Shown in pieces: positions 11,128-34,228 of a stretch of DNA of 64,000 nucleotides. The first letter of the stretch is position 1; every line of letters begins with the position of its first letter. Position numbers and translations under genes: made by a program. Under the pieces are notes generated by a model. The model did no database searches, was not told the DNA's origin, and saw only the letters and a program-made list of their open reading frames with translations. Source of the DNA: Solirubrobacteraceae bacterium (lineage in GTDB: Bacteria > Actinomycetota > Thermoleophilia > Solirubrobacterales > Solirubrobacteraceae); the NCBI GenBank assembly GCA_036389485.1, contig DASVPR010000037.1:22972-86971 (forward strand). The letters run 5' to 3'.

Positions 11128-12186
11128 ATGCGGCGCGCGCTCGTGCTCGCCTTCCTCGCGGCCCTCGCGGTCGCTCCGCCGGCTGCGGGCGAGGACGTCC
11201 TCGTGTTCACGCGGACCGAGGGCTACCGCCACGAGTCGATCCCCGACGGCGTCGCGATGATCCGCGCGCTCGGCGCCGAGCACGGCTTCGCGGTGACCGA
11301 CACGGACGACGCGTCCGTGTTCACCGCGGACGCGCTCGCGCCGTTCGAGGCCGTCGTCTTCCTCAGCACGAACCGCGAGGTCCTCGACGACGCTCAGCAG
11401 GAGGCACTGGCGGGGTTCGTGCGGGACGGCGGCGGCTGGGCGGGGATCCACGCGGCCGCCGACACCGAGTACGCGTGGCCGTTCTACGGCGAGGTGCTGC
11501 TCGGCGGGGCGTGGTTCTCGTCGCACCCGCCGATCCAGCCGGCGGCGGTCGAGGTCGAGGATGCCGCGCACCCCTCCACGCGAGGGCTGCCCGCGCGGTG
11601 GACGCGCAGCGACGAGTGGTACGCGTTCACGGCGAACCCGCGGGCGCGGGCGCGCGTGCTGCTGCGCGTCGACGAGTCGTCCTACGACGCGGGATCGAGC
11701 TCGATGGCGCCCGACCACCCGATCGCCTGGTGCCGCGACGTCGCGCGCGGGCGCTCGTGGTACACCGCGATGGGCCACACGCGCGAGTCGTACGGCGAGG
11801 CCGACTTCCGCGAGCACGTCCTCGGCGGGGTCCTGTACGCGGCCGGCCGGCTGCCCGCGGACTGCAGCCCGCGCGCCCGCGACGCGCCGCAGGTCGACGC
11901 GCCGCTGAGCATCGCCCGCCGCGAGCTGCGCCGCCGCGGCCTGCCGGTGACCGTGAAGTGCCCGCGCGCGTGCACCGCCCGGCTGCGGCTCGTCGCCGGC
12001 GCTGGCCCCTCCCCCACCCGCGGCCCCGCGCTCGCGAACGCACGCCGCGTGCGAGTCGCCGCCGGCGCGTCGCGAACCCTCAGGATCCGTGCAAGCCGCC
12101 GCCCGCCCGCGAAGGTGAGGCTCGTCGCCTCGGTGCGCGCCGCGGGCGAAGAGGAGACGGTCGTGCGCATCGTCGCCGTGGAGTGA
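11128..12186 (+). CDS. exported ThuA-domain (trehalose-utilisation-like, GATase1-fold) protein with a basic C-terminal tail
   Basis: It has a signal peptide (MRRALVLAFLAALAVAPPAAG) and ThuA-like motifs (VLVFTRTEGYRHESI, GGGWAGIHAA, HPIAW). It carries about 100 extra Arg-rich C-terminal residues. Confidence 0.7.
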   Translation: MRRALVLAFLAALAVAPPAAGEDVLVFTRTEGYRHESIPDGVAMIRALGAEHGFAVTDTDDASVFTADALAPFEAVVFLSTNREVLDDAQQEALAGFVRDGGGWAGIHAAADTEYAWPFYGEVLLGGAWFSSHPPIQPAAVEVEDAAHPSTRGLPARWTRSDEWYAFTANPRARARVLLRVDESSYDAGSSSMAPDHPIAWCRDVARGRSWYTAMGHTRESYGEADFREHVLGGVLYAAGRLPADCSPRARDAPQVDAPLSIARRELRRRGLPVTVKCPRACTARLRLVAGAGPSPTRGPALANARRVRVAAGASRTLRIRASRRPPAKVRLVASVRAAGEEETVVRIVAVE

Positions 12187-12191
12187 GGCCC

Positions 12192-13217
12192 TCAGCCCAC
12201 GAGCGCGCGGCGCAGCATCCCTCGGAGTGCCCTCCGGCTGCGGATCGCGCGGCGGTCGTAGACCGCGACCCACCGGACGCGGCCGGCGCGCGTGCCGAAC
12301 ACGAGCGGGCGGCGCTTCGCGTGCCAGACGCGGGTCGCGGCGACGCTGCCCGCCTTGCGCAACCGGCGGATCGGCTTCGCGGGCGTTCCCGGCCCGTACC
12401 GGAAGCGCCCGGCGCGGGCGACGATCATCACGGTCGGCTCGGCGTCGTCGCCGCCGAGATCGCCGCTGCGGTCGCTCCTCTGCCCGACGAGGTACGCGCC
12501 GTTCTCGCAGTAGCGCAGGAACCCGCGGCGCACCTCGAACGGCCGGCCGAGCTTCGCGCGGACCGTGCCCTCCGGGTCGCCGAGCTTCACCGGGCCGAGC
12601 GCGCGTGACGTGACGTCCGGTGCCAGGCACGCGTCGCTCGTCGTCTGCAACTCGGCGGTCCGGCCGTCCTGCTCGGCGTAGACGGGCTGGGTCTTCGCCT
12701 TCTCGACACAGCGCGGCTCGACCTCGCCCTCGTCCTCGAACCACGTCCCGCCCGTGCCCGGGCCCATGCTCTGTGCGTACTCGGGCGGCATCCCCGGCGC
12801 GGCGCTCGGGTCCTGCGTCCGTCCGTTGACCTTGAAGTTCTCGACGTAGGCGCCGCCCTCGCCCTTCGCGCGATCGTAGGCGTACTTCCCGTCCCACTCG
12901 TAGATCGCCGTCGTGCCGTCGTCCTGCACCACCGCGCTGCGCCAGTGGTCCACCTGGTAGTAGAAGCACTTGTCGGCGGCGACGCCCACGCGCGCGGGCT
13001 CCTTCGAGAAGAACTCGACGATCCCGAGCTGGGTGACGTTCTGCCGGCGCTTGTCGAACTCGACGCAGTACGGGTCCGCCTCCGGGTTCGGGCCCTCGGC
13101 CTCGAAGCCCGCCTGCTGCAGCTCGCACTTGAACGGGTTGGTGCCGTCCCACGGGCGAGGCTCGCCGAACGCGGTCGCGACGAGGACGAGCGTGAAGGCG
13201 AGCGCGAGCCGCTTCAT
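12192..13217 (-). CDS. secreted protein, unknown function
   Basis: It has a signal peptide (MKRLALAFTLVLVATAFG). Its ATG overlaps the upstream GMC stop (ATGA at 13214-13217). Confidence 0.65.
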   Translation of the reverse strand: MKRLALAFTLVLVATAFGEPRPWDGTNPFKCELQQAGFEAEGPNPEADPYCVEFDKRRQNVTQLGIVEFFSKEPARVGVAADKCFYYQVDHWRSAVVQDDGTTAIYEWDGKYAYDRAKGEGGAYVENFKVNGRTQDPSAAPGMPPEYAQSMGPGTGGTWFEDEGEVEPRCVEKAKTQPVYAEQDGRTAELQTTSDACLAPDVTSRALGPVKLGDPEGTVRAKLGRPFEVRRGFLRYCENGAYLVGQRSDRSGDLGGDDAEPTVMIVARAGRFRYGPGTPAKPIRRLRKAGSVAATRVWHAKRRPLVFGTRAGRVRWVAVYDRRAIRSRRALRGMLRRALVG

Positions 13218-14881
13218 GCCGCCTTCCGAACGTGCTCGGTGAGGATCTCGTCGGGCGTGCGCGGTGCGAAGCCGGGCGGCCGCGTGGGCAGGCCGAGGTC
13301 GCCGCCGGCGGCCACGAGCTGCTCGGCGCACCGCTCGCTCACCGCCGCGATCGTCAGCGACGGGTTCACGCCGAGCGACGTCGGGATGATCGACGAGTCG
13401 ATGCAGAACAGGCCCTCGTAGCCGAAGACCGCGCCGCGGTGGTCGGTCACGCCGAGGCCGGGATCGCCCGCCATCCGGCACCCGCCGAGCGGGTGCGACG
13501 CGTACGCGCCCTGCGTCTCGGTGAGCTTCATGAACCGCGCGAGGCCGCGCCGCCGCGCGATCCGCGCCATCGCCCTGTCCGCCGCCTCCCGCACCCGCAC
13601 CGACTGCTCGCTGAGCTTGTACGTGAACGTCCCGATCGCGACGGGCCCGGCGTTGGGCCGCTCGGCACTGCCGGCGTGCGGCGCGGCGTAGAACGACCCG
13701 TCGTGCGTGTCCTCGACCATCGCCAGGAGCTCGATCCGGTTGGCCCAGCGGTTGATCGCCTCCTTCTTCTGCAGCCCCCACCAGCTCGGCTCGGCGGGCT
13801 CGCGCCCGTCGTCGTAGAGGAAGTTCGTCAGCGAGCTGAGGAAGATCTCCTGCAGTGTGAAGCGCGTCCCGTCCCACCGGTTGCCGCGGCGCCCGACCCA
13901 GAAGTCGTACGTCATCGTCGTGATCGGCTTGCCCTTGTAGAACTCGTCGAACGGCGGGAGCCTCAGGACCTCGCGCACGCGCCGCGGGTCGTACTCGAGC
14001 GCCGCGATGTGGTCGCCGTTGACGCCGACGTGCCGGCCCAGCTGCTCGCTCAGCGACGGCAGCTGCGGCCGCGAGCGCATGAGGATCGGCGAGTTGCCCA
14101 TCGCGCCCATGCTCAGGACGACGACCTTCGCCTCGTACTCGACGGAAGGCCCGGCGGGCTGCTTCGTCGCGGGGTCGAGCGGCGTCGCGCTGACGACGTA
14201 GCGGTACGGCCGCGCGCTCGACTGCCGGATCGACTGGACCTCGAGGTTCGGGACCACCCGCACGCCGGCGCGCTCCGCGCTCGCGAGGTAGTTCGTGTTC
14301 ACCGTGTTCTTCGCGCCGAAGACGCACCCGGTGTGGCACCACTTCACGTTCGCGCACCGCGACTCGGTGATCGCGAGCGGGACGCGGTCGCACGTGTGCC
14401 CGGCCGCCGCGAGCGTCTTCGCCCACAGCCCGCCGGACTTCGACACCTGCGCCCACGTCGGCCGCTGGACGCGCAGCGCCTTCTCCGCACGCTCGTAGTA
14501 CGGGTCCAGCGAGCGGCGCGAGATCTCGGCCGGCCACATGCGCCGCTCCGGCCCGTCGCCCGGGCGCCGGTCGCGGCGCTCGAACGTCTCGGTCGGCGAG
14601 CGGATCGACGCCGCGAGGTACAGGTTCGATCCTCCACCGACCGCGTTGCCGACCACGATCTGCGCACCGTCGCCCTGGATCAGCATGTAGACGTCGGACA
14701 GGTGGTCGATGTGCATCGACTGCTTGAAGTCGGTGTGGTTCGCGAACCGCCGGCCGCGCTCGAGGACGACGACGGCCTTGGGGTCCGCGCCCGCGGCCCG
14801 GTACAGCTCCGAGAGCCGGTAGGCGGTGATCGAGCCGCCGAAGCCGCTGCCCGCGATGAGGACGTCCACGCGCTCGGCCAT
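13214..14881 (-). CDS. GMC-family FAD oxidoreductase (cholesterol-oxidase-like)
   Basis: It has an N-terminal GxGxxG (DVLIAGSGFGGS) and a C-terminal GMC motif (HPLGGCRM...IPTSLGVNPSLTI). It has no signal peptide of its own. Confidence 0.8.
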   Translation of the reverse strand: MAERVDVLIAGSGFGGSITAYRLSELYRAAGADPKAVVVLERGRRFANHTDFKQSMHIDHLSDVYMLIQGDGAQIVVGNAVGGGSNLYLAASIRSPTETFERRDRRPGDGPERRMWPAEISRRSLDPYYERAEKALRVQRPTWAQVSKSGGLWAKTLAAAGHTCDRVPLAITESRCANVKWCHTGCVFGAKNTVNTNYLASAERAGVRVVPNLEVQSIRQSSARPYRYVVSATPLDPATKQPAGPSVEYEAKVVVLSMGAMGNSPILMRSRPQLPSLSEQLGRHVGVNGDHIAALEYDPRRVREVLRLPPFDEFYKGKPITTMTYDFWVGRRGNRWDGTRFTLQEIFLSSLTNFLYDDGREPAEPSWWGLQKKEAINRWANRIELLAMVEDTHDGSFYAAPHAGSAERPNAGPVAIGTFTYKLSEQSVRVREAADRAMARIARRRGLARFMKLTETQGAYASHPLGGCRMAGDPGLGVTDHRGAVFGYEGLFCIDSSIIPTSLGVNPSLTIAAVSERCAEQLVAAGGDLGLPTRPPGFAPRTPDEILTEHVRKAA

Positions 14882-15514: not shown

Positions 15515-16162
15515 GTGAGTGCCCGCGGCGCGGTCTGCCTCGAGGGCTTCCACGCGCTGAAGCACGCCATCCGGTTCGGGGCGAAGCTGCTCGAGGTGCG
15601 GACCGACGACACCTCGCGGCTGGCGGCCCTCGCGCGTGAGCTTGCGCCCGACGTGGCGGACGAGATCGTCGCCCGCGCGGAGAAGGGCCCCGGCCCGTTC
15701 CCGCCGACGGGGGTGATGTCGTGGGCGGAGCGGCCCGCGCCTCGGGAGCTCGGAGCGGGCCTGGTCGTCCTGCTCGACCACCCGCGGCGCCTCGGGAACG
15801 TCGGCGCGGCGATCCGGGTCGCCGCGGCGGCGGACGCGGCGGGCGTGGTCGTGACCGGCGACGCCGACCCGTGGCATCGCCAGGCCGTGCGCGGCGCGGC
15901 CGGGCTGCAGTTCGCGTTGCCGATCGCGGACGAGGCGCCGGCCGGCCGCCCGCTCGTCGCGCTCGACCCCGAGGGCGACCCGCTCGACGGGATCCCGCCC
16001 GACGCCGTGCTGGCCTTCGGGTCGGAGCGGCGCGGGCTCTCCCCGGAGGTCCTCGAACGCGCCGACGCCCGGGTCGCATTGCCGATGCGCCCGGGCGTCT
16101 CGTCGCTGAACCTCGCGACCGCGGTGGCCGCGACGCTGTACTCGGCTAGCGCTTCACGCTGA
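15515..16162 (+). CDS. SpoU/TrmH-family RNA 2'-O-methyltransferase
   Basis: It has SPOUT motifs (NVGAAIRVAAAA, FGSERRGLS, SLNLATAVAATLY). The start is GTG. Confidence 0.75.
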   Translation: MSARGAVCLEGFHALKHAIRFGAKLLEVRTDDTSRLAALARELAPDVADEIVARAEKGPGPFPPTGVMSWAERPAPRELGAGLVVLLDHPRRLGNVGAAIRVAAAADAAGVVVTGDADPWHRQAVRGAAGLQFALPIADEAPAGRPLVALDPEGDPLDGIPPDAVLAFGSERRGLSPEVLERADARVALPMRPGVSSLNLATAVAATLYSASASR

Positions 16163-17219
16163 ACCGCTGCGTCTGCTTCGGGCCGCCGGACGGGGTGATC
16201 GCGAGCGTCACCTTCACGGCGCCCGCGCGGCGGACCGCCTTGCGCGCCCGCTTCGGGATCGCGAGCGTGATGCGCTTCGTCGCGCCCGGCGCGATCGTGA
16301 AGCGCTTGCGGGCGAGCGGCTTCGCGTCCGCCGCGGCGCGGGCCTTGCCGCCGCCGAGCGTCGCGGTCGCGGTGCCCGTGCAGCCGGTGGCGCACGTGAC
16401 GGGGACCGACACGCTCGTCGCCGTCAGCTTCGCCGCGGTGGTGGCCGCCTCGACGAGCGGCTTCGCCGCGGGCCGCACGGGCTCGGGCTGCGCCGGCGGC
16501 GCGGGCTGATCCGGGACGAGCGGGACGAGGAGGTCGTCCTCGTTGTCCGGCACGTCCTCCCAGCCGGTCTTCCTGAAGACGACCCAGGCCTTCCAGCTCA
16601 GCTCGCAGAGCGTCGTCTCCTCGTCGAAGCCGGGGCAGTCGGGGCCCGTCACGACGTTGGAGATCGGGAACCTGACCTCCTGCTGGCCGACGAGGCCGGG
16701 CGTGAACGTCAGCTCGCCGTCCCAGAAGCCGGAGCCGAGCGGCGCACCGAACGACTCGAACCGCTTCTGGTACGGGCCGAGGCCCGCGCAGTCCATCTGG
16801 ACCTGGACCGCCTCGAGGACGCGCACCTTGTAGGTCGAGGAGGTGCCGTTGTACTGGGCGTCCAGCCGGCCGGACTGGAAGTCGACGATCTCCGAGCCGT
16901 CGCAATCGATGCGCGCGCCGTTCGGGTTGACCGTCGCGAGGTGACCGCGGACGCCGGTGGCGGAGCCCATCGAGACCGTCGAGTCGCCGCCGATGTGGTC
17001 GAGGAACGAGACCTTCGGGACCTCGGTCTTGAACGTGAACTCGTTGTCCTCGTGGTGGCTCTGCTCGCCGTCCTCCGTGTGGGTGATGCGGGCGACGTTG
17101 TAGTACGCCCGGCCCTCGATCGAGACGGCGTAGTCCGTGCGGACGGAGTCGGCGGCGGCGGGCGGGGCCCCCGCCGCGCAGGCGGCGAGGACGGTCAGGG
17201 CGATCAGCCTGCTCTTCAT
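16146..17219 (-). CDS. secreted protein, unknown function, with a basic C-terminal tail
   Basis: It has a signal peptide (MKSRLIALTVLAACAAGAPPAAA), a Pro-rich linker, and a 96-aa Lys/Arg-rich tail. Confidence 0.65.
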   Translation of the reverse strand: MKSRLIALTVLAACAAGAPPAAADSVRTDYAVSIEGRAYYNVARITHTEDGEQSHHEDNEFTFKTEVPKVSFLDHIGGDSTVSMGSATGVRGHLATVNPNGARIDCDGSEIVDFQSGRLDAQYNGTSSTYKVRVLEAVQVQMDCAGLGPYQKRFESFGAPLGSGFWDGELTFTPGLVGQQEVRFPISNVVTGPDCPGFDEETTLCELSWKAWVVFRKTGWEDVPDNEDDLLVPLVPDQPAPPAQPEPVRPAAKPLVEAATTAAKLTATSVSVPVTCATGCTGTATATLGGGKARAAADAKPLARKRFTIAPGATKRITLAIPKRARKAVRRAGAVKVTLAITPSGGPKQTQRFSVKR

Positions 17220-17226
17220 GGCTCTC

Positions 17227-18711
17227 TTACCGTCCGATCGTGATCGAGGTGCGGGCGGCGCCGGCGACGATCGTCAGCGGGACCGACTTCTTGCGCGCGA
17301 GGGCGCGCTTCGCGGCCTTCGTGAACCGCAGGGTCGCCGTGGCGGTGCCGTCCGTCGCCACCTTCGCGCGGCTCCTCGCGACGACCTTGCCGCGGTGCTT
17401 CGCGGTCACCTTCACCTGGCCGGCGGGGAGGCCGGAGAGACGGACCTTCAGGCCGGAGCGCAGCGCGGTGCGGAGGCGCGCCCTGCCGGCGAGGCGCAGC
17501 CGGGCGCCGGCGGGCGTGACGGGGCCCGAGCTCCGCGGGTCGTCGCCGGTCTTCGGGTCGACGGCGCCGGGGACGACCGGGTTCGCGCCGCCGCCGGCAT
17601 CGACGCGCTCGCAGCCGGCGACGACGTCGATCGCGTCCACGACGGCGGTGTCCTCGCCGACGCCGCAGTCCACGTTGTCGACCTCGCCGTCGCGCGCGTC
17701 GATCGTGTCGTTGCCGAACGGGACCGTGCAGGACTGGCCGTAGCCGCCGCAGTTGCCCGACGTCGAGTCCCCGAAGATGTCGTCGCGGCCCGGGCCGCCG
17801 GTCAGGGTGTCGTGGCCCCAGCCGCCCTCGACGCGGTCGTTGCCGGCGCCGCCGTCGATGGTGTGCTCGGAGCGGCCGCCGGTGAGGACGTCGTTGCCGC
17901 CGCGACCCTCGATCACGGTCGTCTGCGCCTCGGCGGCCGCGAAGTTGGACACGCGGTCGGCGCCGTCGCTCATGACGAAGCGGCCGGCGGTGTAGGTCTC
18001 GAGGTTCTCGACGTCACGGACGTCGTCGCCCTCGCCGGGCGCGCCGTCGTTCGCCTGGCCGTCGAGCGTGACCTCGACGAGCGGGGCGTCGAAGGCGGTC
18101 CCCCAGTCGTCGACGGTGTCGAGGCCGGGGCCGCCGTCGATGACGTCCGCGCCGCCGTCCGCGCGCAGGAGGTCGTCGCCGTCGCCGCCGTGCAGCGCGT
18201 CGTCGCCGGCGTTGCCGGTCAGCTTGTCGTTGCCGGCCCCACCGTTGAGCACGTCGCCGCCCTCCTCGGAGTACAGGACGTCCTCGCCGGCGTCGCCGTC
18301 GAAGGTCACGTCGCCGGGCTCGCCGATCGCGCGCAGCTCGTCGTCGCCGTCGCCGCCGAGCCCGTGGATCGGCAGCTCGGCGGGCAGGCCGGGGAAGAGC
18401 GTGATCGCGTCGTCGCCGTGGCCGGCCTCCGCCCTGATCCGGGCGGGCATCTCGCAGGTGACGGGATAGACGTCGGAGCTCTCGTACTGCTCGCAGCGGT
18501 CGGCCGGGAAGTCGTAGTGCTCGGAGCTGTCGCCGATCGAGACTCGACCGCCCTGCTCGGCGATCGTCAGGGTGTTGTCCTGGCCGCCGGAGCGGACGAC
18601 GAGCGTGTCGCCGTCGTAGGCGATCGTGCCGGCGGAGGCCGTGGCCGGGAGCGCGGCGGCGACGCCGGCGGCGATGAGGACCATGCGGCGGATTCGGGTG
18701 CGGTGGCTCAT
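17227..18711 (-). CDS. exported calcium-binding protein with RTX-like GGxGxD repeats and a basic C-terminal tail
   Basis: ATG at 18711. It has a signal peptide ending in ATASAG. It carries repeated GGAGNDKLTGNAGDDALHGGDGDDLL and GGAGNDRVEGGWGHDTLTGGPGRD motifs. Confidence 0.75.
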   Translation of the reverse strand: MSHRTRIRRMVLIAAGVAAALPATASAGTIAYDGDTLVVRSGGQDNTLTIAEQGGRVSIGDSSEHYDFPADRCEQYESSDVYPVTCEMPARIRAEAGHGDDAITLFPGLPAELPIHGLGGDGDDELRAIGEPGDVTFDGDAGEDVLYSEEGGDVLNGGAGNDKLTGNAGDDALHGGDGDDLLRADGGADVIDGGPGLDTVDDWGTAFDAPLVEVTLDGQANDGAPGEGDDVRDVENLETYTAGRFVMSDGADRVSNFAAAEAQTTVIEGRGGNDVLTGGRSEHTIDGGAGNDRVEGGWGHDTLTGGPGRDDIFGDSTSGNCGGYGQSCTVPFGNDTIDARDGEVDNVDCGVGEDTAVVDAIDVVAGCERVDAGGGANPVVPGAVDPKTGDDPRSSGPVTPAGARLRLAGRARLRTALRSGLKVRLSGLPAGQVKVTAKHRGKVVARSRAKVATDGTATATLRFTKAAKRALARKKSVPLTIVAGAARTSITIGR

Positions 18712-18805
18712 GGCCGGGGACCTTCGGCGACGCGGGTTGCAGCCACCTTTCGCGGCGGCGGCAACGTCGTGCAAGGCGACGGCAAGGTCGCGGCGGGAAG
18801 GGGTG

Positions 18806-21800
18806 TCAGCAGGGCGAGAGCGCGCCGGCGAGCTTGCGCCGCGCGCTCCGCAGGTACGACGCGGCCTCGCCCGGCGTGAGCCGAAGCCGCTCGGCGATCG
18901 CGCGCGCATCGAGGCCGTCATCGGCGAGGCTTGCGACCCGGCGCTCCGGCTCGGTGAGCTCGTCGGCCGCGGCGGGCGCGGCGCCCACGGCGGCGAGCTG
19001 CCGGGCGCACCGCGCGGCGAGGCCCTGCGCGCCGCAGATCCCCGCGAGGGTGAGCGCGGCGCCGAGCGTCCGAGGCGCGGCGTCGACGTCGCGCGCGTCC
19101 GCCTGCGCGGCGCCGAGCGCGGCCAGCGCCTTCGCCCTCTCGAGCCGCGACCGCGAGCGCTCCAGCGTCTCCACCGCGCGCTCGAGCAGCGCGATGTCGC
19201 CGTCGATCTCGCCGAGCGTCCGCAGCGCCCGACCGACCGCCGCGGGCGCGCCCCACGCCTCCGCGAGTGACAGGCCCCGAAGCGCCGCCGCTCGCGCCGC
19301 CTCGAAGCCGTCGCGCGAGGCGGCGCGGCCGGCGCGCTCGCCCGTCCGCGCGGCGTCCCTCGCCGCCACGCCCGCGAGCGCGCGGGCGAGCAGGTCGTTG
19401 ACGGGGATCCATGCGGGGTTTCCCTCGGTCCCGGCGAGCTGCGCGATCCGCTCGGCGGTGGCGAGCGCGTCGTGCGGGCGATCCTCGGCAAGCGCGCGCT
19501 CGGTCTCGGCGCAGAGGAGCAGGAGGTGGCCCTGGCTGCCCTCGGGCGCCTGCTGCGCGGTGCGCGCCACTTCACGGGCGGCTTCGACGTCGCCGCGCTC
19601 GACGAGCGTCGAGGCGAGCAGCGCGATCGGGAAGACGGAGATCACGCCGCCGGATCCCCAGAGCGCGAGCTCGTTGAGGCTCTCGCGCAGCGAGCGCTCG
19701 GCGTCCTCGAGGTCGCCGCGCGCGAGCAGCTCGTAGCCGCGCCAGATGTGCGCGGTCGAGGTGAGCAGGAGCGAGCCGCGGCGGTAGGCCGCGTCGAGGA
19801 CGGCGTCCCACTCGCGGAGCGCCTCCGGGCGGTCGGCCGTGGTCAGGGTGATGAACGTGCCGGGGAGGAGCAGGCCGTCGTCGACCTCGGCGAGCGTCCC
19901 GCCCGAGAGCGACCGCAGCGCGAGCTCGGCGCACGGGCCCGCCTCGCGCCCGGCGAACGCCCAGCCCCACGCGACGATCGACTCGAGCATCCGCACGCCG
20001 GGGCCGTCGCCCTCGGGCAGCCCGTCCTGCTCGTAGCGCGCGAGGCGCTCCGCGATCTGCGCGGGCTCCCCGACGCCGCCGCGGATGAGCGTCATGAGCT
20101 CGTACGCCTCGAGGCCGAGCATCGCGTCGCGCTGATCGGCGGGCGTCTCGCGGCGGGCGGTGCGCACGAACGCGAGCAGCTCGGTGGGCGTGCCGGCGAA
20201 GAAGAGCGTCGAGGCGAGCGCGAGCGCCGCGGCCGCCCGGGCCGCCGGGTCCGTCAGCGCCTCGTACGCGGCGGCGAGGTGCTCGGCGGCCGACGCGCCG
20301 TCGACGAGCTGCTCCGCGAGCCCCAGCTCGAGCAGGACCCCGGCGCGCTCCTCCTCCGGCGGCGGCTCGGCGAGCGCGCGGCGCAGGAACGCCGCGGCGC
20401 TGTCGGGCGCGCCCTTGCGCGCGGCGCCGGAGCCCGCGCGGCGCAGGGTCGCGGCGGCGTCCGCATCGCCGCCCGGCGGCGCCTTCGCGAGCTGCAGCGC
20501 GATCTGCTCCGGCTCCGCGCCCGCCGCCGCGAGGACCTTCGCCGCGCGGGCGTGCTGCAGCTCGCGCTCGCCGACGGAGACGCCGTAGTAGACGGCGTCG
20601 CGGACGAGCGGGTGGACGAAGCGCAGAGGGGCGGCGCGGGCGGCGTCGCGGCTCGGGATGGCATCGCCGCGGAGGATCTCCGCGCGGGAGAGCGCCGCGA
20701 CCGCGCGGCCGGCGGCGCCGAGTTCCAGCCCGGCGAGCTCGGCCACCGCCGACAGCCCGGCGCCCTCGCCGAGGATCGACAGCGCGCGGGCGGCGGCGAC
20801 GGCCTCGTCCGGCATCCGCGCGAGCCGGAGCCCGATCGTGCGCGACAGGGCGCGCGGGCCGATCTCCTCGACGCGCACCGCGTGCTCGTCGCGCGGCTCG
20901 ACGCCCTCGCTCTCGAGTGCCGCGAGCAGCTGGTGCAGCAGCAGAGGGTTGCCGCCGGTGGTCGCGTGGCAGGCCGCGCAGAACGCGTCGCCGGCAGCGG
21001 CGCCGAGCCGGGCACGGACGACGTCCGCGGCCGCCGCGTCCGACAGCGGCGCGGGCCGGATCGCGACGGTCGCCGGATCGTGGACGACCTCGTCGAGCAG
21101 CGCGGCATCGGTCGGCTGCTCGCCGCTCCGCAGCGTCGCGAGCACGAGCACGGGCAGGCCCTCGAGCCGGCGGACGAGGTACGCGAGCAGCCGCAGCGAC
21201 GGCCGGTCGCACCAGTGGACGTCGTCGACCGCGAGGACGAGCGGCCGGTCGGCCGACAGGTGCACGATCGACCAGTAGAGGCCGTGCAGGACGGCGAACG
21301 ACGTGTCCGCCGCGAGCTCCCCCTCCCCCGGCCGCCCGAAGACCGCGCTCGCGGGCGCCGCCGCCCCGGCGAGCACGGCGTCCCGGCGAGCCGGATCGGC
21401 CAGCTCGACCTCGAGCAGCTGCCGGACGACGCCGAAGGGGAAATCGCGCTCGTGCTCGCTCGCCCGGGCGTTCAGAACTCGGGCGCCCGCCGCGGTCGCG
21501 CGGCGACGCGCCTCGTCGAGCAGTCGCGTCTTCCCGAGCCCCGCCGGCCCCTCGATCAGCGCGACGCGGCCGGGTTCGAGCGCGTCGAGGGCGTCGAGCT
21601 CCCGCTCCCGCTCGACGAGCTCGGGGCCGAGCGTGGCGCGAAGTGGAGGGGCTGCGGCGGGCAGCGGCGAGCCTCCCACTTCGCGCAGCAGCGCCTCGCG
21701 GAGGGCGACGACCTCCCAGGAGGGGGACGCGCCGAGCTCCTCGCCGAGCAGCTCGCGGAGATCGTCGAAGGCGCGGAGGGCCTCCGCCGGGTTCCCCTCG

Positions 21801-22432
21801 GCGCGCAACGCCTCGATGAGGCGGGCCCAGCACGACTCGCGGAACGGGGCGAGCTCGACGGCGGTGCGAGCGGCGGCGACGGCTTCGCTCGCGGCCTCTC
21901 CGCCGAGGGCGGCGCCCGCCTGGGCCGCCAGCTCGAGCGCCTCGACGCGCAGCTCGGCCAGCTCCGCCCGGCGCTCGGCGATCCACGGGGCCTCGTCGCC
22001 GGGGAGCAGGCCGCGCGCGGCGATCTCCTCGGCCCGGCCGGCGGCTTCGAGGCACGCGCCCCATGCGGAACGGCCGGCGGCGGCGCGCGCGGCGTCGATC
22101 GCGGCGCCGACCTCCTCCCAGTCGACGACGGTCCCCTCGGGAAGACGCAGCGTCAGGTCGCGACGACCCTCGAGCGCGTCCGCGCCGAGCGCCTTGCGCA
22201 GGCGCGACAGCAGCGGCGAGAGCAGCTCGTCCGCGCGGGCGGGCGCGCCCTCCCCCGGCCACACCGCGCCGACGAGCTCGTCCCGCCGGACGGGGCGCCG
22301 GCGATGCAGGACGAGGAAGGCGAAGAGGAGCCGCGACTGGCGGCGGGTGAACGCGTCGTCGAGCCGCTCGCCCCGCCACACGACGGCGAGCCTTCCGCAC
22401 AGCTCGATGCGTGACTCGGATTCAGCGATCAC
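18806..22432 (-). CDS. large regulator: N-terminal SARP (OmpR-type wHTH + BTAD), P-loop ATPase, helical repeats, C-terminal LuxR-type HTH
   Basis: The N-terminal region (RIELCGRLAVVWRGERL...) and the ...PFRESCWARLIEALRAEGNPAEALRAFDDLRELL segment look BTAD-like. The Walker A motif is GPAGLGKT. The C-terminal segment LTEPERRVASLADDGLDARAIAERLRLTPGEAASYLRSARRKL resembles a LuxR_C HTH. Confidence 0.75.
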   Translation of the reverse strand: MIAESESRIELCGRLAVVWRGERLDDAFTRRQSRLLFAFLVLHRRRPVRRDELVGAVWPGEGAPARADELLSPLLSRLRKALGADALEGRRDLTLRLPEGTVVDWEEVGAAIDAARAAAGRSAWGACLEAAGRAEEIAARGLLPGDEAPWIAERRAELAELRVEALELAAQAGAALGGEAASEAVAAARTAVELAPFRESCWARLIEALRAEGNPAEALRAFDDLRELLGEELGASPSWEVVALREALLREVGGSPLPAAAPPLRATLGPELVERERELDALDALEPGRVALIEGPAGLGKTRLLDEARRRATAAGARVLNARASEHERDFPFGVVRQLLEVELADPARRDAVLAGAAAPASAVFGRPGEGELAADTSFAVLHGLYWSIVHLSADRPLVLAVDDVHWCDRPSLRLLAYLVRRLEGLPVLVLATLRSGEQPTDAALLDEVVHDPATVAIRPAPLSDAAAADVVRARLGAAAGDAFCAACHATTGGNPLLLHQLLAALESEGVEPRDEHAVRVEEIGPRALSRTIGLRLARMPDEAVAAARALSILGEGAGLSAVAELAGLELGAAGRAVAALSRAEILRGDAIPSRDAARAAPLRFVHPLVRDAVYYGVSVGERELQHARAAKVLAAAGAEPEQIALQLAKAPPGGDADAAATLRRAGSGAARKGAPDSAAAFLRRALAEPPPEEERAGVLLELGLAEQLVDGASAAEHLAAAYEALTDPAARAAAALALASTLFFAGTPTELLAFVRTARRETPADQRDAMLGLEAYELMTLIRGGVGEPAQIAERLARYEQDGLPEGDGPGVRMLESIVAWGWAFAGREAGPCAELALRSLSGGTLAEVDDGLLLPGTFITLTTADRPEALREWDAVLDAAYRRGSLLLTSTAHIWRGYELLARGDLEDAERSLRESLNELALWGSGGVISVFPIALLASTLVERGDVEAAREVARTAQQAPEGSQGHLLLLCAETERALAEDRPHDALATAERIAQLAGTEGNPAWIPVNDLLARALAGVAARDAARTGERAGRAASRDGFEAARAAALRGLSLAEAWGAPAAVGRALRTLGEIDGDIALLERAVETLERSRSRLERAKALAALGAAQADARDVDAAPRTLGAALTLAGICGAQGLAARCARQLAAVGAAPAAADELTEPERRVASLADDGLDARAIAERLRLTPGEAASYLRSARRKLAGALSPC

Positions 22433-32281: not shown

Positions 32282-34228
32282 ATGCCCCTCGTACGTGCCG
32301 TGCTCATCGCTGCCCTGCTCGCCCTCGTCCCGGCCGCCGCCGCGTTCGCGCACATGCAGGACCAGTCGCCGACGAGCATCGAGGAGGAGACGGGCTACCA
32401 GTGGGGGGAGATCAACGCCCCGACGTTCTCCGCCGCGATGCGCAACGTGCCCCTGCCGGCGAATCCGCCCGGGCCGTGCACCGAGTACGCGAAGCGGATG
32501 ATGCCCGCGCACGAGGGCCACGACCACACCGACATCAACCAGCACCGCTTCCAGTGCGAGATGGAGACGGTCGCGTTCGAGTCGATGACCGAGCAGTTCT
32601 CCGCGCGGCCGGACATCGCGTTCGGCGAGATGGACATCAAGGGCGACCTCGCCGTCGTGGCGACCGCCTATCCGGAGTCCGGCTTCGTCCTCTTCGACGT
32701 CTCCGACACCTCGAAGCCGAAGTTCCTCAGCTGGTACCGCAGCGACGAGTGCGAGGGCCTCTTGATCGACGTCGACTGCGGCGCGTTCGTCGACCTCTCT
32801 CCCGACGGCAAGCGCGTGTACATCTCGGTGCAGCAGATCTCGGTCGTGCCGGGCGGCGCGCCGTCGCCGAAGCCGGGCGCCGCCGCGTACCCGGGGGTCG
32901 AGGTCGTCGACATCTCCGACCGCACCGCACCGGCGCTCCGGCAGAAGCTGCCGGTCACGTCGGTGGGCGGCGTGCACACGACGCGCTCGTTCGAGGTGCC
33001 GGGCAAGGGCGAGTACACGGTGTCGGTCGCCAACGGCGTCGGCGCGATGCTCCACAAGGTCGATCCCGCCACCGGGACCCTCTCGCCCCTCCACATGATC
33101 GAGATGCAGGAGCTGCACGACACGTTCATCCAGCAGGACCCGATGACGGGCAAGACGCTGCTCTACATCGCGGGCGGCTTCGACTCGGGCTTCTACGTGT
33201 TCGACGTGAGCGACCCGGCCAGCCCGGTCGGCCTGGCCGAGTGGGACATCACGCCGGAGTGCGAGAACGACTGGTACGCGCACACGCTCGACGTCACCAC
33301 GATCAACGGCCGCCGGATCGTGACGCTGCCGGTGGAGCTGATCGACTTCTTCGGCGAGCAGTCCGAGGAGGACCAGAAGGAGGGCTGCGGCAAGTTCCAG
33401 GGCAACGGCGACTTCAGCGGCCCGCTGTTCATCGTCGACGCCACCGACTTCTCGAAGCTCGGCGAGGTCAACACGCAGGACGACGAGGCGGAGGAGACGG
33501 CGTCGGACATCAAGGCGAGGTCCGAGGCGTCGCTGATCACCGTCTGGTCCAACGCGGCGCACCGCGCCGGCGGCGAGCTGACGTTCTCGCCGCACAACCA
33601 GCAGATCGTCGGCGATCGGATCTTCCTGTCCGGCTACCACGGCGGCGTGACCGTGCTCGACGCGAGCGACGCGTTCGCGGGCAAGAACGTCCGCCCGCGC
33701 GAGCTCGGCGTGCTCGTGCCGCACGGCGACACGACGCGGCCGATCCACCCCGACCGGGGTGGCACCCCCGCCTACAGCCGGTTCTTCACGTCGTTCATCG
33801 ACTATCGCCCGCTGATCTGGGACATGCAGTGGCATCGCGGCCACGTCCTGGCGGCGGACATGGTCGGCGGCTTCTACGCGCTGAAGTACACGGGCGAGGA
33901 GAGGATCCCGGCCAACGACCCGGATCCGTACAAGGCGGTCACGCCGGCCGAGTCGACCGCGCGCGGGCTGACCCTGCGGTTCACGCGCAACCGGCTGACC
34001 GGGCGGCGCCTGCGGATGGACGTCGTGGGGCCGAGCGTGGCGAACGTGAAGTCGGTGCGGTTCCTGCTGAACGGGCACCGCGTGCGGGTCGACCGGCGCG
34101 CGCCGTTCCGGGTCACGGTGAAGCTCAGCCGCCGCAACTTCAAGCGGCTGCACATGACCGCGATCGCGACGCTCTCCGACGGGTCGCGCGTGCCGCTGCG
34201 GCGGACGCTGCGCTCGCGGCTCCGGTAA
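32282..34228 (+). CDS. exported LVIVD-repeat beta-propeller protein with an Ig-like basic C-terminal domain
   Basis: It has a signal peptide. Repeated LVIVD-type strands are present: GFVLFDVSD, GVEVVDISD, GFYVFDVSD, PLFIVDATD, GVTVLDASD. Confidence 0.7.
   Translation: MPLVRAVLIAALLALVPAAAAFAHMQDQSPTSIEEETGYQWGEINAPTFSAAMRNVPLPANPPGPCTEYAKRMMPAHEGHDHTDINQHRFQCEMETVAFESMTEQFSARPDIAFGEMDIKGDLAVVATAYPESGFVLFDVSDTSKPKFLSWYRSDECEGLLIDVDCGAFVDLSPDGKRVYISVQQISVVPGGAPSPKPGAAAYPGVEVVDISDRTAPALRQKLPVTSVGGVHTTRSFEVPGKGEYTVSVANGVGAMLHKVDPATGTLSPLHMIEMQELHDTFIQQDPMTGKTLLYIAGGFDSGFYVFDVSDPASPVGLAEWDITPECENDWYAHTLDVTTINGRRIVTLPVELIDFFGEQSEEDQKEGCGKFQGNGDFSGPLFIVDATDFSKLGEVNTQDDEAEETASDIKARSEASLITVWSNAAHRAGGELTFSPHNQQIVGDRIFLSGYHGGVTVLDASDAFAGKNVRPRELGVLVPHGDTTRPIHPDRGGTPAYSRFFTSFIDYRPLIWDMQWHRGHVLAADMVGGFYALKYTGEERIPANDPDPYKAVTPAESTARGLTLRFTRNRLTGRRLRMDVVGPSVANVKSVRFLLNGHRVRVDRRAPFRVTVKLSRRNFKRLHMTAIATLSDGSRVPLRRTLRSRLR

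What the first reader, a model, noticed from the sequence alone, without database searches (positions are those of the whole stretch)
16149..17508. The same ~95-aa Lys/Arg-rich C-terminal module is appended to unrelated exported proteins
Three exported proteins with unrelated N-terminal domains end in a similar basic tail.
- The ThuA-domain protein tail is at 11881-12183.
- The unknown secreted protein tail is at 16149-16436.
- The RTX-like Ca-binding protein tail is at 17230-17508.

The pattern is strand-like alternation (.V.V.C...C in two of the three). It is followed by AR.R(F/V).(I/V)A.G(A/T)(S/T)(K/R).(I/L).(I/L), then K.A.RR or KK, then V.(V/L)T(I/L), for example:
- ARKRFTIAPGATKRITLAIPKRARKAVRRAGAVKVTLAI
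- ARSRAKVATDGTATATLRFTKAAKRALARKKSVPLTIV
- ARRVRVAAGASRTLRIRASRRPPAKVRLVASV

The LVIVD protein (33962-34225) ends in a looser, Ig-like basic domain. A shared C-terminal module on Sec substrates suggests a cell-envelope anchoring or sorting domain. I cannot name it. No sortase LPXTG motif and no other known sorting signal is present.
Basis: seen in the sequence. Interest (0 to 1): 0.6.

Follow-up and report, generated by a model that had tools for sequence, protein, structure and literature searches.

The report
Cationic C-terminal Ig-like tail, Solirubrobacteraceae
Three unrelated exported proteins in this window (and about 30 in the genome) end in the same ~95-residue, very positively charged antibody-like domain that no database describes; it most likely holds secreted enzymes on the negatively charged cell surface of this soil actinobacterial lineage, but no binding has been shown.

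Summary
The ThuA, unknown and RTX proteins end in one homologous ~95-aa domain. The LVIVD tail does not belong to it.

Pairwise BLAST between the tails is not significant, but profiles are decisive. An HMM built only from 147 foreign sequences recovers the three tails at genome-wide E-values of 1e-17, 5e-9 and 7e-5. It also recovers about 29 further ORFs in this genome, every one at the extreme C-terminus.

- **Fold:** AlphaFold gives a confident Ig-like sandwich (pLDDT 92.6) of seven strands and two short basic helices.
- **Databases:** Pfam, NCBIfam, the PDB sequence search and Foldseek name no family.
- **Size:** the family has 6,530 cluster representatives. In 157 of 158 examined it ends the protein, and 135 end in Arg.
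- **Charge:** the net charge is about +23, on acidic heads, behind a Pro-rich linker.
- **Distribution:** it occurs in Solirubrobacterales and one further Thermoleophilia family. It was not found in about 185 other Actinomycetota.

My best reading is non-covalent retention on an anionic envelope (about 0.5). The rivals are a sorting or cleaved C-terminal domain, and binding to matrix or soil polyanions.

Earlier notes of this scan describe what appears to be the same tail in other Thermoleophilia genomes. I could not confirm by sequence that it is the same family.

The parts
11128..12186 (+). Exported ThuA-domain protein (352 aa) with Sec signal peptide MRRALVLAFLAALAVAPPAAG
   Evidence: Pfam ThuA 2.9e-74; signal peptide; the mature head is acidic, net charge -13, pI 5.0.
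11884..12183 (+). Cationic C-terminal Ig-like tail of the ThuA protein (net charge +16, pI 12; contains VTVKCPRAC)
   Evidence: E 1.7e-15 with the profile seeded from the RTX tail; 7.2e-5 with the foreign-only profile. Orthologous ThuA genes of the three nearest Solirubrobacteraceae MAGs carry the same tail. The more distant ThuA genes whose ends I read carry other C-terminal extensions or none, and the profile matched no other ThuA locus.
16146..17219 (-). Exported protein with no known domain (357 aa), signal peptide MKSRLIALTVLAACAAGAPPAAA, Pro-rich linker before the tail
   Evidence: No Pfam family; a paralog with the same tail lies at G000:C43:5701-7479.
16149..16466 (-). Cationic C-terminal Ig-like tail of the unknown protein (net charge +19; divergent, lacks helix 1, has VPVTCATGC)
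   Evidence: Foreign-only profile 4.6e-9. The AlphaFold model has pLDDT 79.5, the same strand order and the conserved helix 2.
17227..18711 (-). Exported RTX calcium-binding repeat protein (494 aa), signal peptide ...AAALPATASA
   Evidence: HemolysinCabind 1.1e-17; head net charge -60, pI 4.1. The 782-aa ORF listed from the GTG at 19575 is an over-extension.
17230..17508 (-). Cationic C-terminal Ig-like tail of the RTX protein (net charge +23; a typical member)
   Evidence: Foreign-only profile 1.4e-17. The AlphaFold model has pLDDT 92.6 and pTM 0.78, with 7 strands and 2 helices. Its nearest tails sit on PD40 propeller proteins, not on other RTX proteins.
33962..34225 (+). C-terminal region of the LVIVD protein: NOT part of the family
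   Evidence: Profile score -2 bits; phmmer finds only itself in the genome.

Best explanation
The three tails are copies of one uncatalogued domain of about 95 residues.

The domain is an Ig-like beta-sandwich of seven strands. Two short, strongly basic helices are inserted in it: LRxALRRGL after strand 1, and kkArRaLRRaR before the last two strands. The final strand ends the protein, usually in ...LRR-COOH.

Described parts: the domain sits behind a Pro/Gly/Thr-rich linker at the very end of Sec-exported, acidic extracellular enzymes and binding proteins. It has been shuffled among unrelated heads within Solirubrobacterales.

Inferred mechanism: after export the folded domain (net charge about +20) binds electrostatically to anionic components of the monoderm envelope, either wall glycopolymers or the outer face of the membrane. 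The linker spans the wall, so the enzyme is displayed on the cell instead of diffusing away into soil.
For: **Homology and position (shown)**
- Profile searches give E 1e-5 to 1e-23 for about 32 ORFs of the genome, all ending 0-15 aa from the stop.
- The family has 6,530 representatives at E<=1e-3. In 157 of 158 examined the domain ends within 15 aa of the C-terminus, with a median distance of 0.

**Fold (predicted)**
- pLDDT is 92.6 for the RTX tail and 79.5 for the unknown protein's tail.
- Only generic Ig-like matches were found, with TM about 0.5.

**Exported (shown by sequence)**
- 27 of 32 carriers have a signal-peptide-like N-terminus, most with an AxA-type cleavage site.
- A conserved CxxxC pair is present.
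- The heads are typical exoproteins: ThuA, RTX, PD40, M14, S8, PhoX, TSP3, PKD, cupredoxin.

**Charge**
- Tails have a median net charge of +22 to +23, against -6.5 per 100 aa for the heads.
- Lys makes up 38% of the basic residues, so the charge is not merely a by-product of high G+C.
- The basic residues sit in conserved columns.

**Anchor-like architecture**
- The 30 aa upstream of the domain are 18.5% Pro, against 6.1% elsewhere.
- 8 of the 158 carry two tandem copies at the C-terminus, as binding modules often do.

**Envelope context**
- No Omp85, so a monoderm is likely.
- No SLH.
- One sortase and about one LPXTG-type substrate.
- LCP ligases are present.
- This tail is therefore by far the commonest C-terminal module on exported proteins in this genome.

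**Not among known wall-attachment domains**
- It is absent from Table 1 of PMC5817068.
Against: - No binding, localisation or ligand has been shown.
- The obvious candidate ligand does not co-distribute with the domain. A TagF-type polymerase occurs in 10 of 31 relatives, while the domain occurs in 30 of 31.
- Most carriers have a single copy, whereas LysM, SLH, CWB2 and GW modules usually act in tandem.
- Simple polyanion binding does not explain why the domain must be the very last element, or why 85% of the proteins end in Arg.
- Whether the tail stays on the mature protein is unknown.
Confidence: 0.5

Rival explanations
1. The tail is a sorting or secretion tag. It would work like the Ig-like C-terminal domain of type IX secretion cargo, or like the pre-peptidase C-terminal (PPC) domain. 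A dedicated but still unknown factor would recognise it, possibly through the free ...RR-COOH end. That factor would direct export, attachment or maturation, and the tail would then be cleaved off.
For: - The position is strictly terminal: 157 of 158.
- The last residue is Arg in 135 of 158, and the terminal dipeptide is RR or KR in 105.
- There is normally one copy per protein.
- Size and fold class equal those of T9SS C-terminal domains: a beta-sandwich of 80-100 aa on otherwise unrelated Sec cargo.
- The domain has been shuffled between unrelated heads.
Against: - No HMM match to Por_Secre_tail/TIGR04183 or PPC in any of the 21 tails.
- No Omp85, so no outer membrane to cross.
- No gene family recurs next to the 32 tail genes.
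- No conserved cleavage motif lies at the linker-domain junction; the linkers are variable.
- Eight proteins carry tandem copies, which is unusual for a secretion tag.
Confidence: 0.17
2. The tail binds an external polyanion rather than the producer's own envelope. Candidates are extracellular DNA or acidic exopolysaccharide of a biofilm matrix, clay or humic surfaces in soil, or a polyanionic substrate. This would immobilise exoenzymes near the cell.
For: - It rests on the same charge and architecture data as the main reading.
- The lack of co-distribution with a TagF-type wall polymer fits a ligand that the cell does not have to make.
- The nearest named relatives are Solirubrobacteraceae MAGs.
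Against: - Nothing in the data separates this from envelope binding.
- The strictly terminal position and the Pro-rich wall-spanner-like linker are more typical of cell-anchored proteins.
Confidence: 0.18
3. The tail is a generic structural Ig-like end domain, acting as a stalk, a stabiliser or an oligomerisation unit. It would have no targeting role, and its charge would be a lineage-specific compositional quirk.
For: - The fold is a generic Ig-like sandwich.
- The DAAGN motif, one Big_13 hit at 2e-4 and one Big_8 hit at 3e-3 suggest descent from ordinary bacterial Ig-like repeats.
- One representative (P0120) has weak internal repeats.
Against: - Ordinary Ig-like repeats occur anywhere in a protein and in arrays. 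This one is terminal in 157 of 158.
- The charge contrast with the heads of the same proteins, about +23 against about -6.5 per 100 aa, is in the same genomes and so is not a genome-wide bias.
- The basic residues are conserved by column.
Confidence: 0.1
4. The resemblance is a compositional artefact of Arg/Ala-rich translation of DNA with 74% G+C, and the tails are not homologous.
For: Pairwise BLAST between the three tails is not significant.
Against: - The foreign-only profile recovers all three tails.
- Thousands of Arg-rich shadow ORFs in the six-frame set are not hit.
- About 185 Actinomycetota genomes outside the class gave no match at E<=1e-5.
- The fold prediction is confident.
Confidence: 0.02

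Closest known systems
Non-covalent cell-wall-binding modules of monoderm bacteria (CWB2 of C. difficile Cwp proteins, SLH, GW/SH3-8 of Listeria InlB and Ami, WxL, SLAP), as catalogued in PMC5817068 Table 1
   Same: - A modular domain is appended to many unrelated exported proteins of one lineage.
- In this lineage it sits at the C-terminus, as WxL does.
- Known modules bind through basic residues to anionic wall polymers; PMC5817068 notes conserved surface Arg in CWB2 and SLH trimers. That mode of binding is what I propose here.
- As with the 29 Cwp proteins of C. difficile, about 30 proteins in one genome share the module.
   Different: - No sequence match to any of these families.
- The fold is an Ig-like sandwich, not a three-helix (SLH), toprim-like (CWB2) or SH3 (GW) fold.
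- It is usually a single copy rather than a triplet.
- It is strictly terminal and ends in Arg.
- The ligand is unknown and binding is untested.
Type IX secretion C-terminal domain, type A (Por_Secre_tail, PF18962 / TIGR04183) of Bacteroidota
   Same: - A beta-sandwich of about 80-100 aa (from my own knowledge of the family, not tested here).
- It lies at the extreme C-terminus of Sec-exported cargo with unrelated functional heads.
- One copy per protein, with many cargo proteins per genome.
   Different: - No HMM match.
- The organism lacks Omp85 and is probably monoderm.
- This tail is extremely basic.
- No candidate machinery was found beside the tail genes.
- T9SS components themselves were not searched for.
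Pfam Big_13 (PF19077) and related bacterial Ig-like domains
   Same: - Ig-like sandwich fold.
- A shared ...tatDAAGN... motif near the end, and in some members a D-x-TAP start.
- One of the 21 tails hits Big_13 at 2e-4.
- Some carriers also have a true Big_13 domain upstream.
   Different: - 20 of the 21 tails, including all three window tails, do not match Big_13 at E<=1.
- The tail has two inserted basic helices and a net charge of about +20.
- The tail is strictly terminal, whereas Big_13 occurs in internal arrays (from my own knowledge).
Bacterial pre-peptidase C-terminal domain (PPC, PF04151)
   Same: A small beta-sandwich at the C-terminus of secreted hydrolases, described as being removed after secretion (from my own knowledge).
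   Different: - No HMM match in the tails.
- The tails are attached to many non-protease heads.
- The tails are highly basic.

Membership tests
Pfam Big_13 (PF19077) | Match to the family HMM at or above the gathering score (27 bits) | tested here: not met
   None of the three window proteins matches it at E<=1. Among the 21 tails, one matches at E 2.2e-4 and the other 20 do not.
T9SS type A C-terminal domain (PF18962 / TIGR04183) | Match to the Por_Secre_tail / TIGR04183 HMM | tested here: not met
   Neither family appears among the matches of the 21 tails at E<=1 in Pfam or NCBIfam.
T9SS type A C-terminal domain (PF18962 / TIGR04183) | A diderm host with an outer membrane and T9SS machinery | tested here: not met
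   No Omp85/BamA match in a genome that is 98% complete. T9SS components were not searched for individually.
Sortase / LPXTG sorting signal | An LPXTG-like motif followed by a hydrophobic segment and a charged tail at the C-terminus | tested here: not met
   The tails end in a beta-strand with ...LRR and have no hydrophobic segment. The genome scan finds about one credible LPXTG-type substrate elsewhere and one sortase.
Known non-covalent wall-binding domains (LysM, SLH, CWB1, CWB2, GW/SH3b, WxL, SPOR, PGB, ChW) | Match to the respective Pfam HMM | tested here: not met
   None appears among the matches of the 21 tails or the three full proteins. SLH is not found anywhere in the genome.
Known non-covalent wall-binding domains (functional class) | Demonstrated binding to peptidoglycan or a wall polymer | not testable with these tools
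   This needs binding assays with the purified tail.
Ig-like / E-set beta-sandwich fold (structural class only) | A seven-strand two-sheet sandwich with structural similarity to solved Ig-like domains | tested here: inconclusive
   The AlphaFold model has 7 strands. The best Foldseek hits are Ig constant domains, SoxYZ, GbpA and RelB domains, with TM 0.5-0.56 but E no better than 8e-3.
PPC domain (PF04151) | Match to the family HMM | tested here: not met
   No match in the 21 tails. One foreign carrier has a weak PPC hit (7.5e-4); its position in that protein was not reported.

The most novel reading that the evidence does not exclude
The tail is the cargo tag of an undescribed sorting or attachment pathway of monoderm Thermoleophilia, a functional counterpart of the T9SS C-terminal domain. 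A dedicated factor would read the folded Ig-like domain together with its free ...(R/K)R-COOH end. It would then hand the protein to the envelope or process it. That would explain why the domain must be the very last element of the protein.
Probability: 0.12. Interest if true: 0.8.

Novelty: new variant of a known kind. Interest (0 to 1): 0.5.

Why it matters
Solirubrobacterales are, to my knowledge, among the most abundant and least studied soil actinobacteria, and how they keep exoenzymes at the cell is unknown.

In this genome the tail marks about 30 exported proteins. These include phosphatases (PhoX), proteases (S8, M14), a sugar-metabolism enzyme (ThuA) and many calcium-binding or propeller proteins. 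By contrast there is about one sortase substrate and no SLH protein. If the tail is the lineage's main surface-display device:
- it would define the surface proteome of these organisms from sequence alone;
- it would add an Ig-like, single-copy, polycationic type to the short list of wall-attachment domains;
- it would give a portable tag for displaying proteins on such cells.

The practical gain now is annotation. A curated HMM would name a domain in thousands of 'hypothetical' metagenomic proteins.

Tried and rejected
- **Pairwise BLAST of the four tails** was not significant, so I turned to profiles.
- **The RTX tail alone against genome contigs** found no relative. The second scan used the ThuA head, which gave the taxonomy and the ortholog test.
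- **The word-based homolog search on the tail region** gave only 9 proteins, all unnamed or 'hypothetical'.
- **PDB sequence search** found nothing. Foldseek gave only generic Ig-like matches.
- **Teichoic acid as the ligand.** A TagF-type gene lies 2 kb from one tail gene, but the family is missing from 21 of 31 relatives that mostly have the domain. I rejected it as an obligatory partner.
- **Search for a recurrent neighbour gene around the 32 tail genes.** Only a common ABC exporter family turned up, near 4 of them. I judged this uninformative.
- **Literature searches** found no description of the domain.
- **Look-up of earlier scan notes by sequence** found no match. The link to earlier notes therefore rests on their wording only.
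- **LVIVD tail as a distant member** was rejected.
Full report
**What is there**

The window is 74% G+C. The nearest ThuA relatives are Solirubrobacteraceae MAGs, so it comes from a Solirubrobacteraceae genome (Thermoleophilia, Actinomycetota). That genome is 4.67 Mb and 98% complete.

- a ThuA-domain protein, CDS 11128-12186 (+);
- a protein with no known domain, CDS 16146-17219 (-);
- an RTX repeat protein, CDS 17227-18711 (-). The longer ORF starting at 19575 is an over-extension.

Each has a Sec-type signal peptide. Pfam names the heads (ThuA 2.9e-74, HemolysinCabind 1.1e-17) and gives nothing on the last ~100 residues, even at E<=1.

**Is the resemblance more than chance?**

Pair by pair it is not: BLASTP between the tails gives E 0.1-0.7. 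Profile searches tell a different story.
- phmmer with single tails against all 36,097 six-frame ORFs of the genome finds other C-terminal tails. The RTX tail reaches 4e-9, 4e-7 and 2e-5. The unknown protein's tail reaches 9e-17 on a paralog.
- Iterating from the RTX tail alone converges on 16 ORFs. These include the ThuA tail at 1.7e-15. The unknown protein's tail follows at E 1e-3, in register and C-terminal.
- To avoid circularity I built an HMM from 147 foreign representatives only, none 60% or more identical to a protein of this genome. It returns RTX 1.4e-17, unknown 4.6e-9 and ThuA 7.2e-5. It returns about 32 ORFs at E<2e-3, every one ending 0-15 aa from its stop codon. Most weaker hits, up to E 0.85, are also C-terminal.
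- Thousands of Arg/Ala-rich shadow ORFs are not hit.
- About 185 Actinomycetota genomes outside the class gave no match at E<=1e-5.

The homology of the three tails is therefore established.

The LVIVD tail (33962-34225) scores -2 bits and has no paralog. It is a different domain.

**Anatomy**

AlphaFold2 on the alignment of 21 own-genome tails gives a confident model of the RTX tail, with pLDDT 92.6 and pTM 0.78. The order of elements is strand, helix (residues 12-18), five strands, helix (64-70), two strands.

The divergent tail of the unknown protein gives the same strand order and the second helix at pLDDT 79.5, but lacks the first helix.

Over 168 sequences the consensus is Aa.Laa..r.kLr.aLRrGL.V.V.C.eAC.vta.a..rgrvVArG.a.l.aAGtatVtLRFTkkArRaLRRaRsvkLTLrvtatDAAGn..t.tr.VTLRR. 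Columns with 70-90% Lys/Arg are concentrated in four places: helix 1, the LRFT strand, helix 2 and the last two residues.

The window tails carry net charges of +16, +19 and +23 (pI 12). Their mature heads carry -13, -18 and -60.

Across 158 representatives:
- the tail's median net charge is +23, against -6.5 per 100 aa for the heads;
- Lys contributes 1,575 and Arg 2,527 of the basic residues, so the charge is not just an effect of CGN codons.

The 30 residues before the domain are 18.5% Pro, against 6.1% in the rest of the protein. Of the 158 proteins, 135 end in Arg, with RR (60) or KR (45) as the last dipeptide.

**Family size, position and distribution**

The profile finds 6,530 cluster representatives (50% identity) at E<=1e-3, and 348 at E<=1e-10. 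In 157 of 158 the last copy ends within 15 aa of the C-terminus, with a median distance of 0. Eight carry two tandem copies at the C-terminus. One (P0120) has only weak internal repeats.

Matches per genome:

| Group | Matches per genome |
|---|---|
| Own genome | 31 |
| Same genus | 11-46 |
| Same family | 1-13 |
| Same order | 0-17 |

Within the class it occurs in f1 (10 of 11), f4 (6 of 8), f3 (1 of 1), f7 (8 of 20) and f61 (1 of 1). It was not found in f8, f9, f59 and f60 (0 of 78).

**Heads**

The heads in this genome are ThuA, RTX (about 6), PD40 propellers (about 6), Peptidase_M14, Peptidase_S8, PhoX (2), TSP_3 (2), PKD, cupredoxin-like, Big_13 and fn3/Glucodextran_B, plus several with no known family. 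Among 62 foreign carriers RTX (22), PD40 (8), FG-GAP (5), PKD and Big_13 dominate. In this genome 27 of 32 carriers have a signal-peptide-like N-terminus.

**The module moves between heads**

The RTX tail is closest to tails on PD40 proteins (49% identity, E 6e-11), while its head is closest to another RTX protein. One of the two PhoX paralogs (heads matching at 1e-108) has its nearest tail on a TSP3 protein rather than on its paralog.

ThuA orthologs of the three nearest Solirubrobacteraceae MAGs carry the tail. The more distant ThuA genes whose ends I read carry other C-terminal domains or none, and the profile matched no other ThuA locus.

**Comparison with known families**
- No Pfam or NCBIfam model covers the tails. 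One tail hits Big_13 at 2e-4 and one hits Big_8 at 3e-3, and nothing else is consistent.
- No PDB sequence match.
- Foldseek against the PDB has no hit at E<=1e-3. The best are Ig constant domains, SoxYZ, GbpA and RelB domains at TM 0.5-0.56.
- The DAAGN motif and the weak Big_13 hit suggest descent from ordinary bacterial Ig-like repeats. By HMM, however, the tails are not members of Big_13.
- The review of wall-attachment domains in monoderm bacteria (PMC5817068, Table 1) lists LPXTG, LysM, WXL, SH3 types, PGB, CWB1, CWB2, SLH and ChW, among others. It lists nothing like this domain.
- Literature searches found no description.

**Mechanism**

The genome has no Omp85, so the cell is probably monoderm. 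It also has:
- no SLH;
- one sortase and about one credible LPXTG-type substrate;
- three LCP ligases;
- one TagF-type polymerase.

A strongly cationic folded domain, placed behind a Pro-rich spacer at the end of acidic exoproteins, is the layout of a surface-retention module. That is my preferred reading, at about 0.5. It is an inference. Points against it or left open:
- The TagF-type enzyme is absent from 21 of 31 relatives, although 30 of 31 have the domain. A TagF-made polymer cannot be the obligatory ligand.
- No gene family recurs next to the 32 tail genes.
- Polyanion binding alone does not explain the strictly terminal position or the terminal Arg. Those two features keep a sorting-tag or cleaved-domain reading alive (about 0.17).
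- Binding to an external polyanion such as matrix DNA, acidic polysaccharide or clay is equally compatible with the charge data (about 0.18).

**Relation to earlier notes of this scan**

Notes e1-5065996, e1-4307953, e1-4144959, e1-2088718, e1-3867891 and e1-1481122 describe a polycationic C-terminal Ig-like or FN3-like tail on exported proteins of other Thermoleophilia or soil actinobacterial genomes. They reach the same tentative reading.

A look-up by sequence gave no link, so I cannot confirm that these are the same family. The wording fits.

**Verdict**

This is a real, large, uncurated domain family. It is a new variant of a known kind: an Ig-like module used as a C-terminal targeting or retention domain. 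The function is plausible but untested.

Noticed in passing
family-wide (158 representatives); window 16149-16151 and 17230-17232 are the final Arg codons of two window proteins: 135 of 158 family members end in Arg, and 105 end in RR or KR, directly after the last beta-strand. Polyanion binding does not explain why the free C-terminus is so constrained.
   Followed up: partly
window 12192-13390 (-): The gene next to the ThuA gene encodes another exported protein (MKRLALAFTLVLVATAFG...). Its C-terminal ~100 residues are also very basic (...RRAIRSRRALRGMLRRALVG), but it is not among the profile's hits in this genome. It may be a second kind of basic tail.
   Followed up: no
window 33962-34225 (+): The basic C-terminal region of the LVIVD protein has no paralog in the genome and no Pfam match at E<=1. 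It is an unrelated and unnamed end domain.
   Followed up: partly
G000:C60:131479-132537 and C60:134594-136657 (outside the window): The genome's only TagF-type glycerophosphotransferase gene lies 2 kb from a tail-bearing gene. Two LCP genes (C22:28510-30518) lie 8 kb from a weak family member (C22:18810-20555). This may be coincidence, since TagF does not co-distribute with the domain.
   Followed up: partly
G000:C43:5701-7479 (-) (outside the window): This paralog of the window's unknown protein has the same tail, but no signal peptide or plausible start could be found in its ORF. It may be 5'-truncated or frameshifted.
   Followed up: no
G000:C25:67449-69443 and C27:16260-19100 (outside the window): Two PhoX alkaline phosphatases carry the tail. 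PhoX enzymes are usually Tat substrates (from my own knowledge). If so, the tail would also travel folded through Tat. The signal type was not examined.
   Followed up: no
window 17227-19575 (-): The mechanical ORF of the RTX gene runs 288 codons upstream of the likely start (M at 18711, followed by a signal peptide). It overlaps the 3' end of the 1208-aa regulator gene at 18806-22432 in another frame, so automatic annotation could over-extend it.
   Followed up: partly
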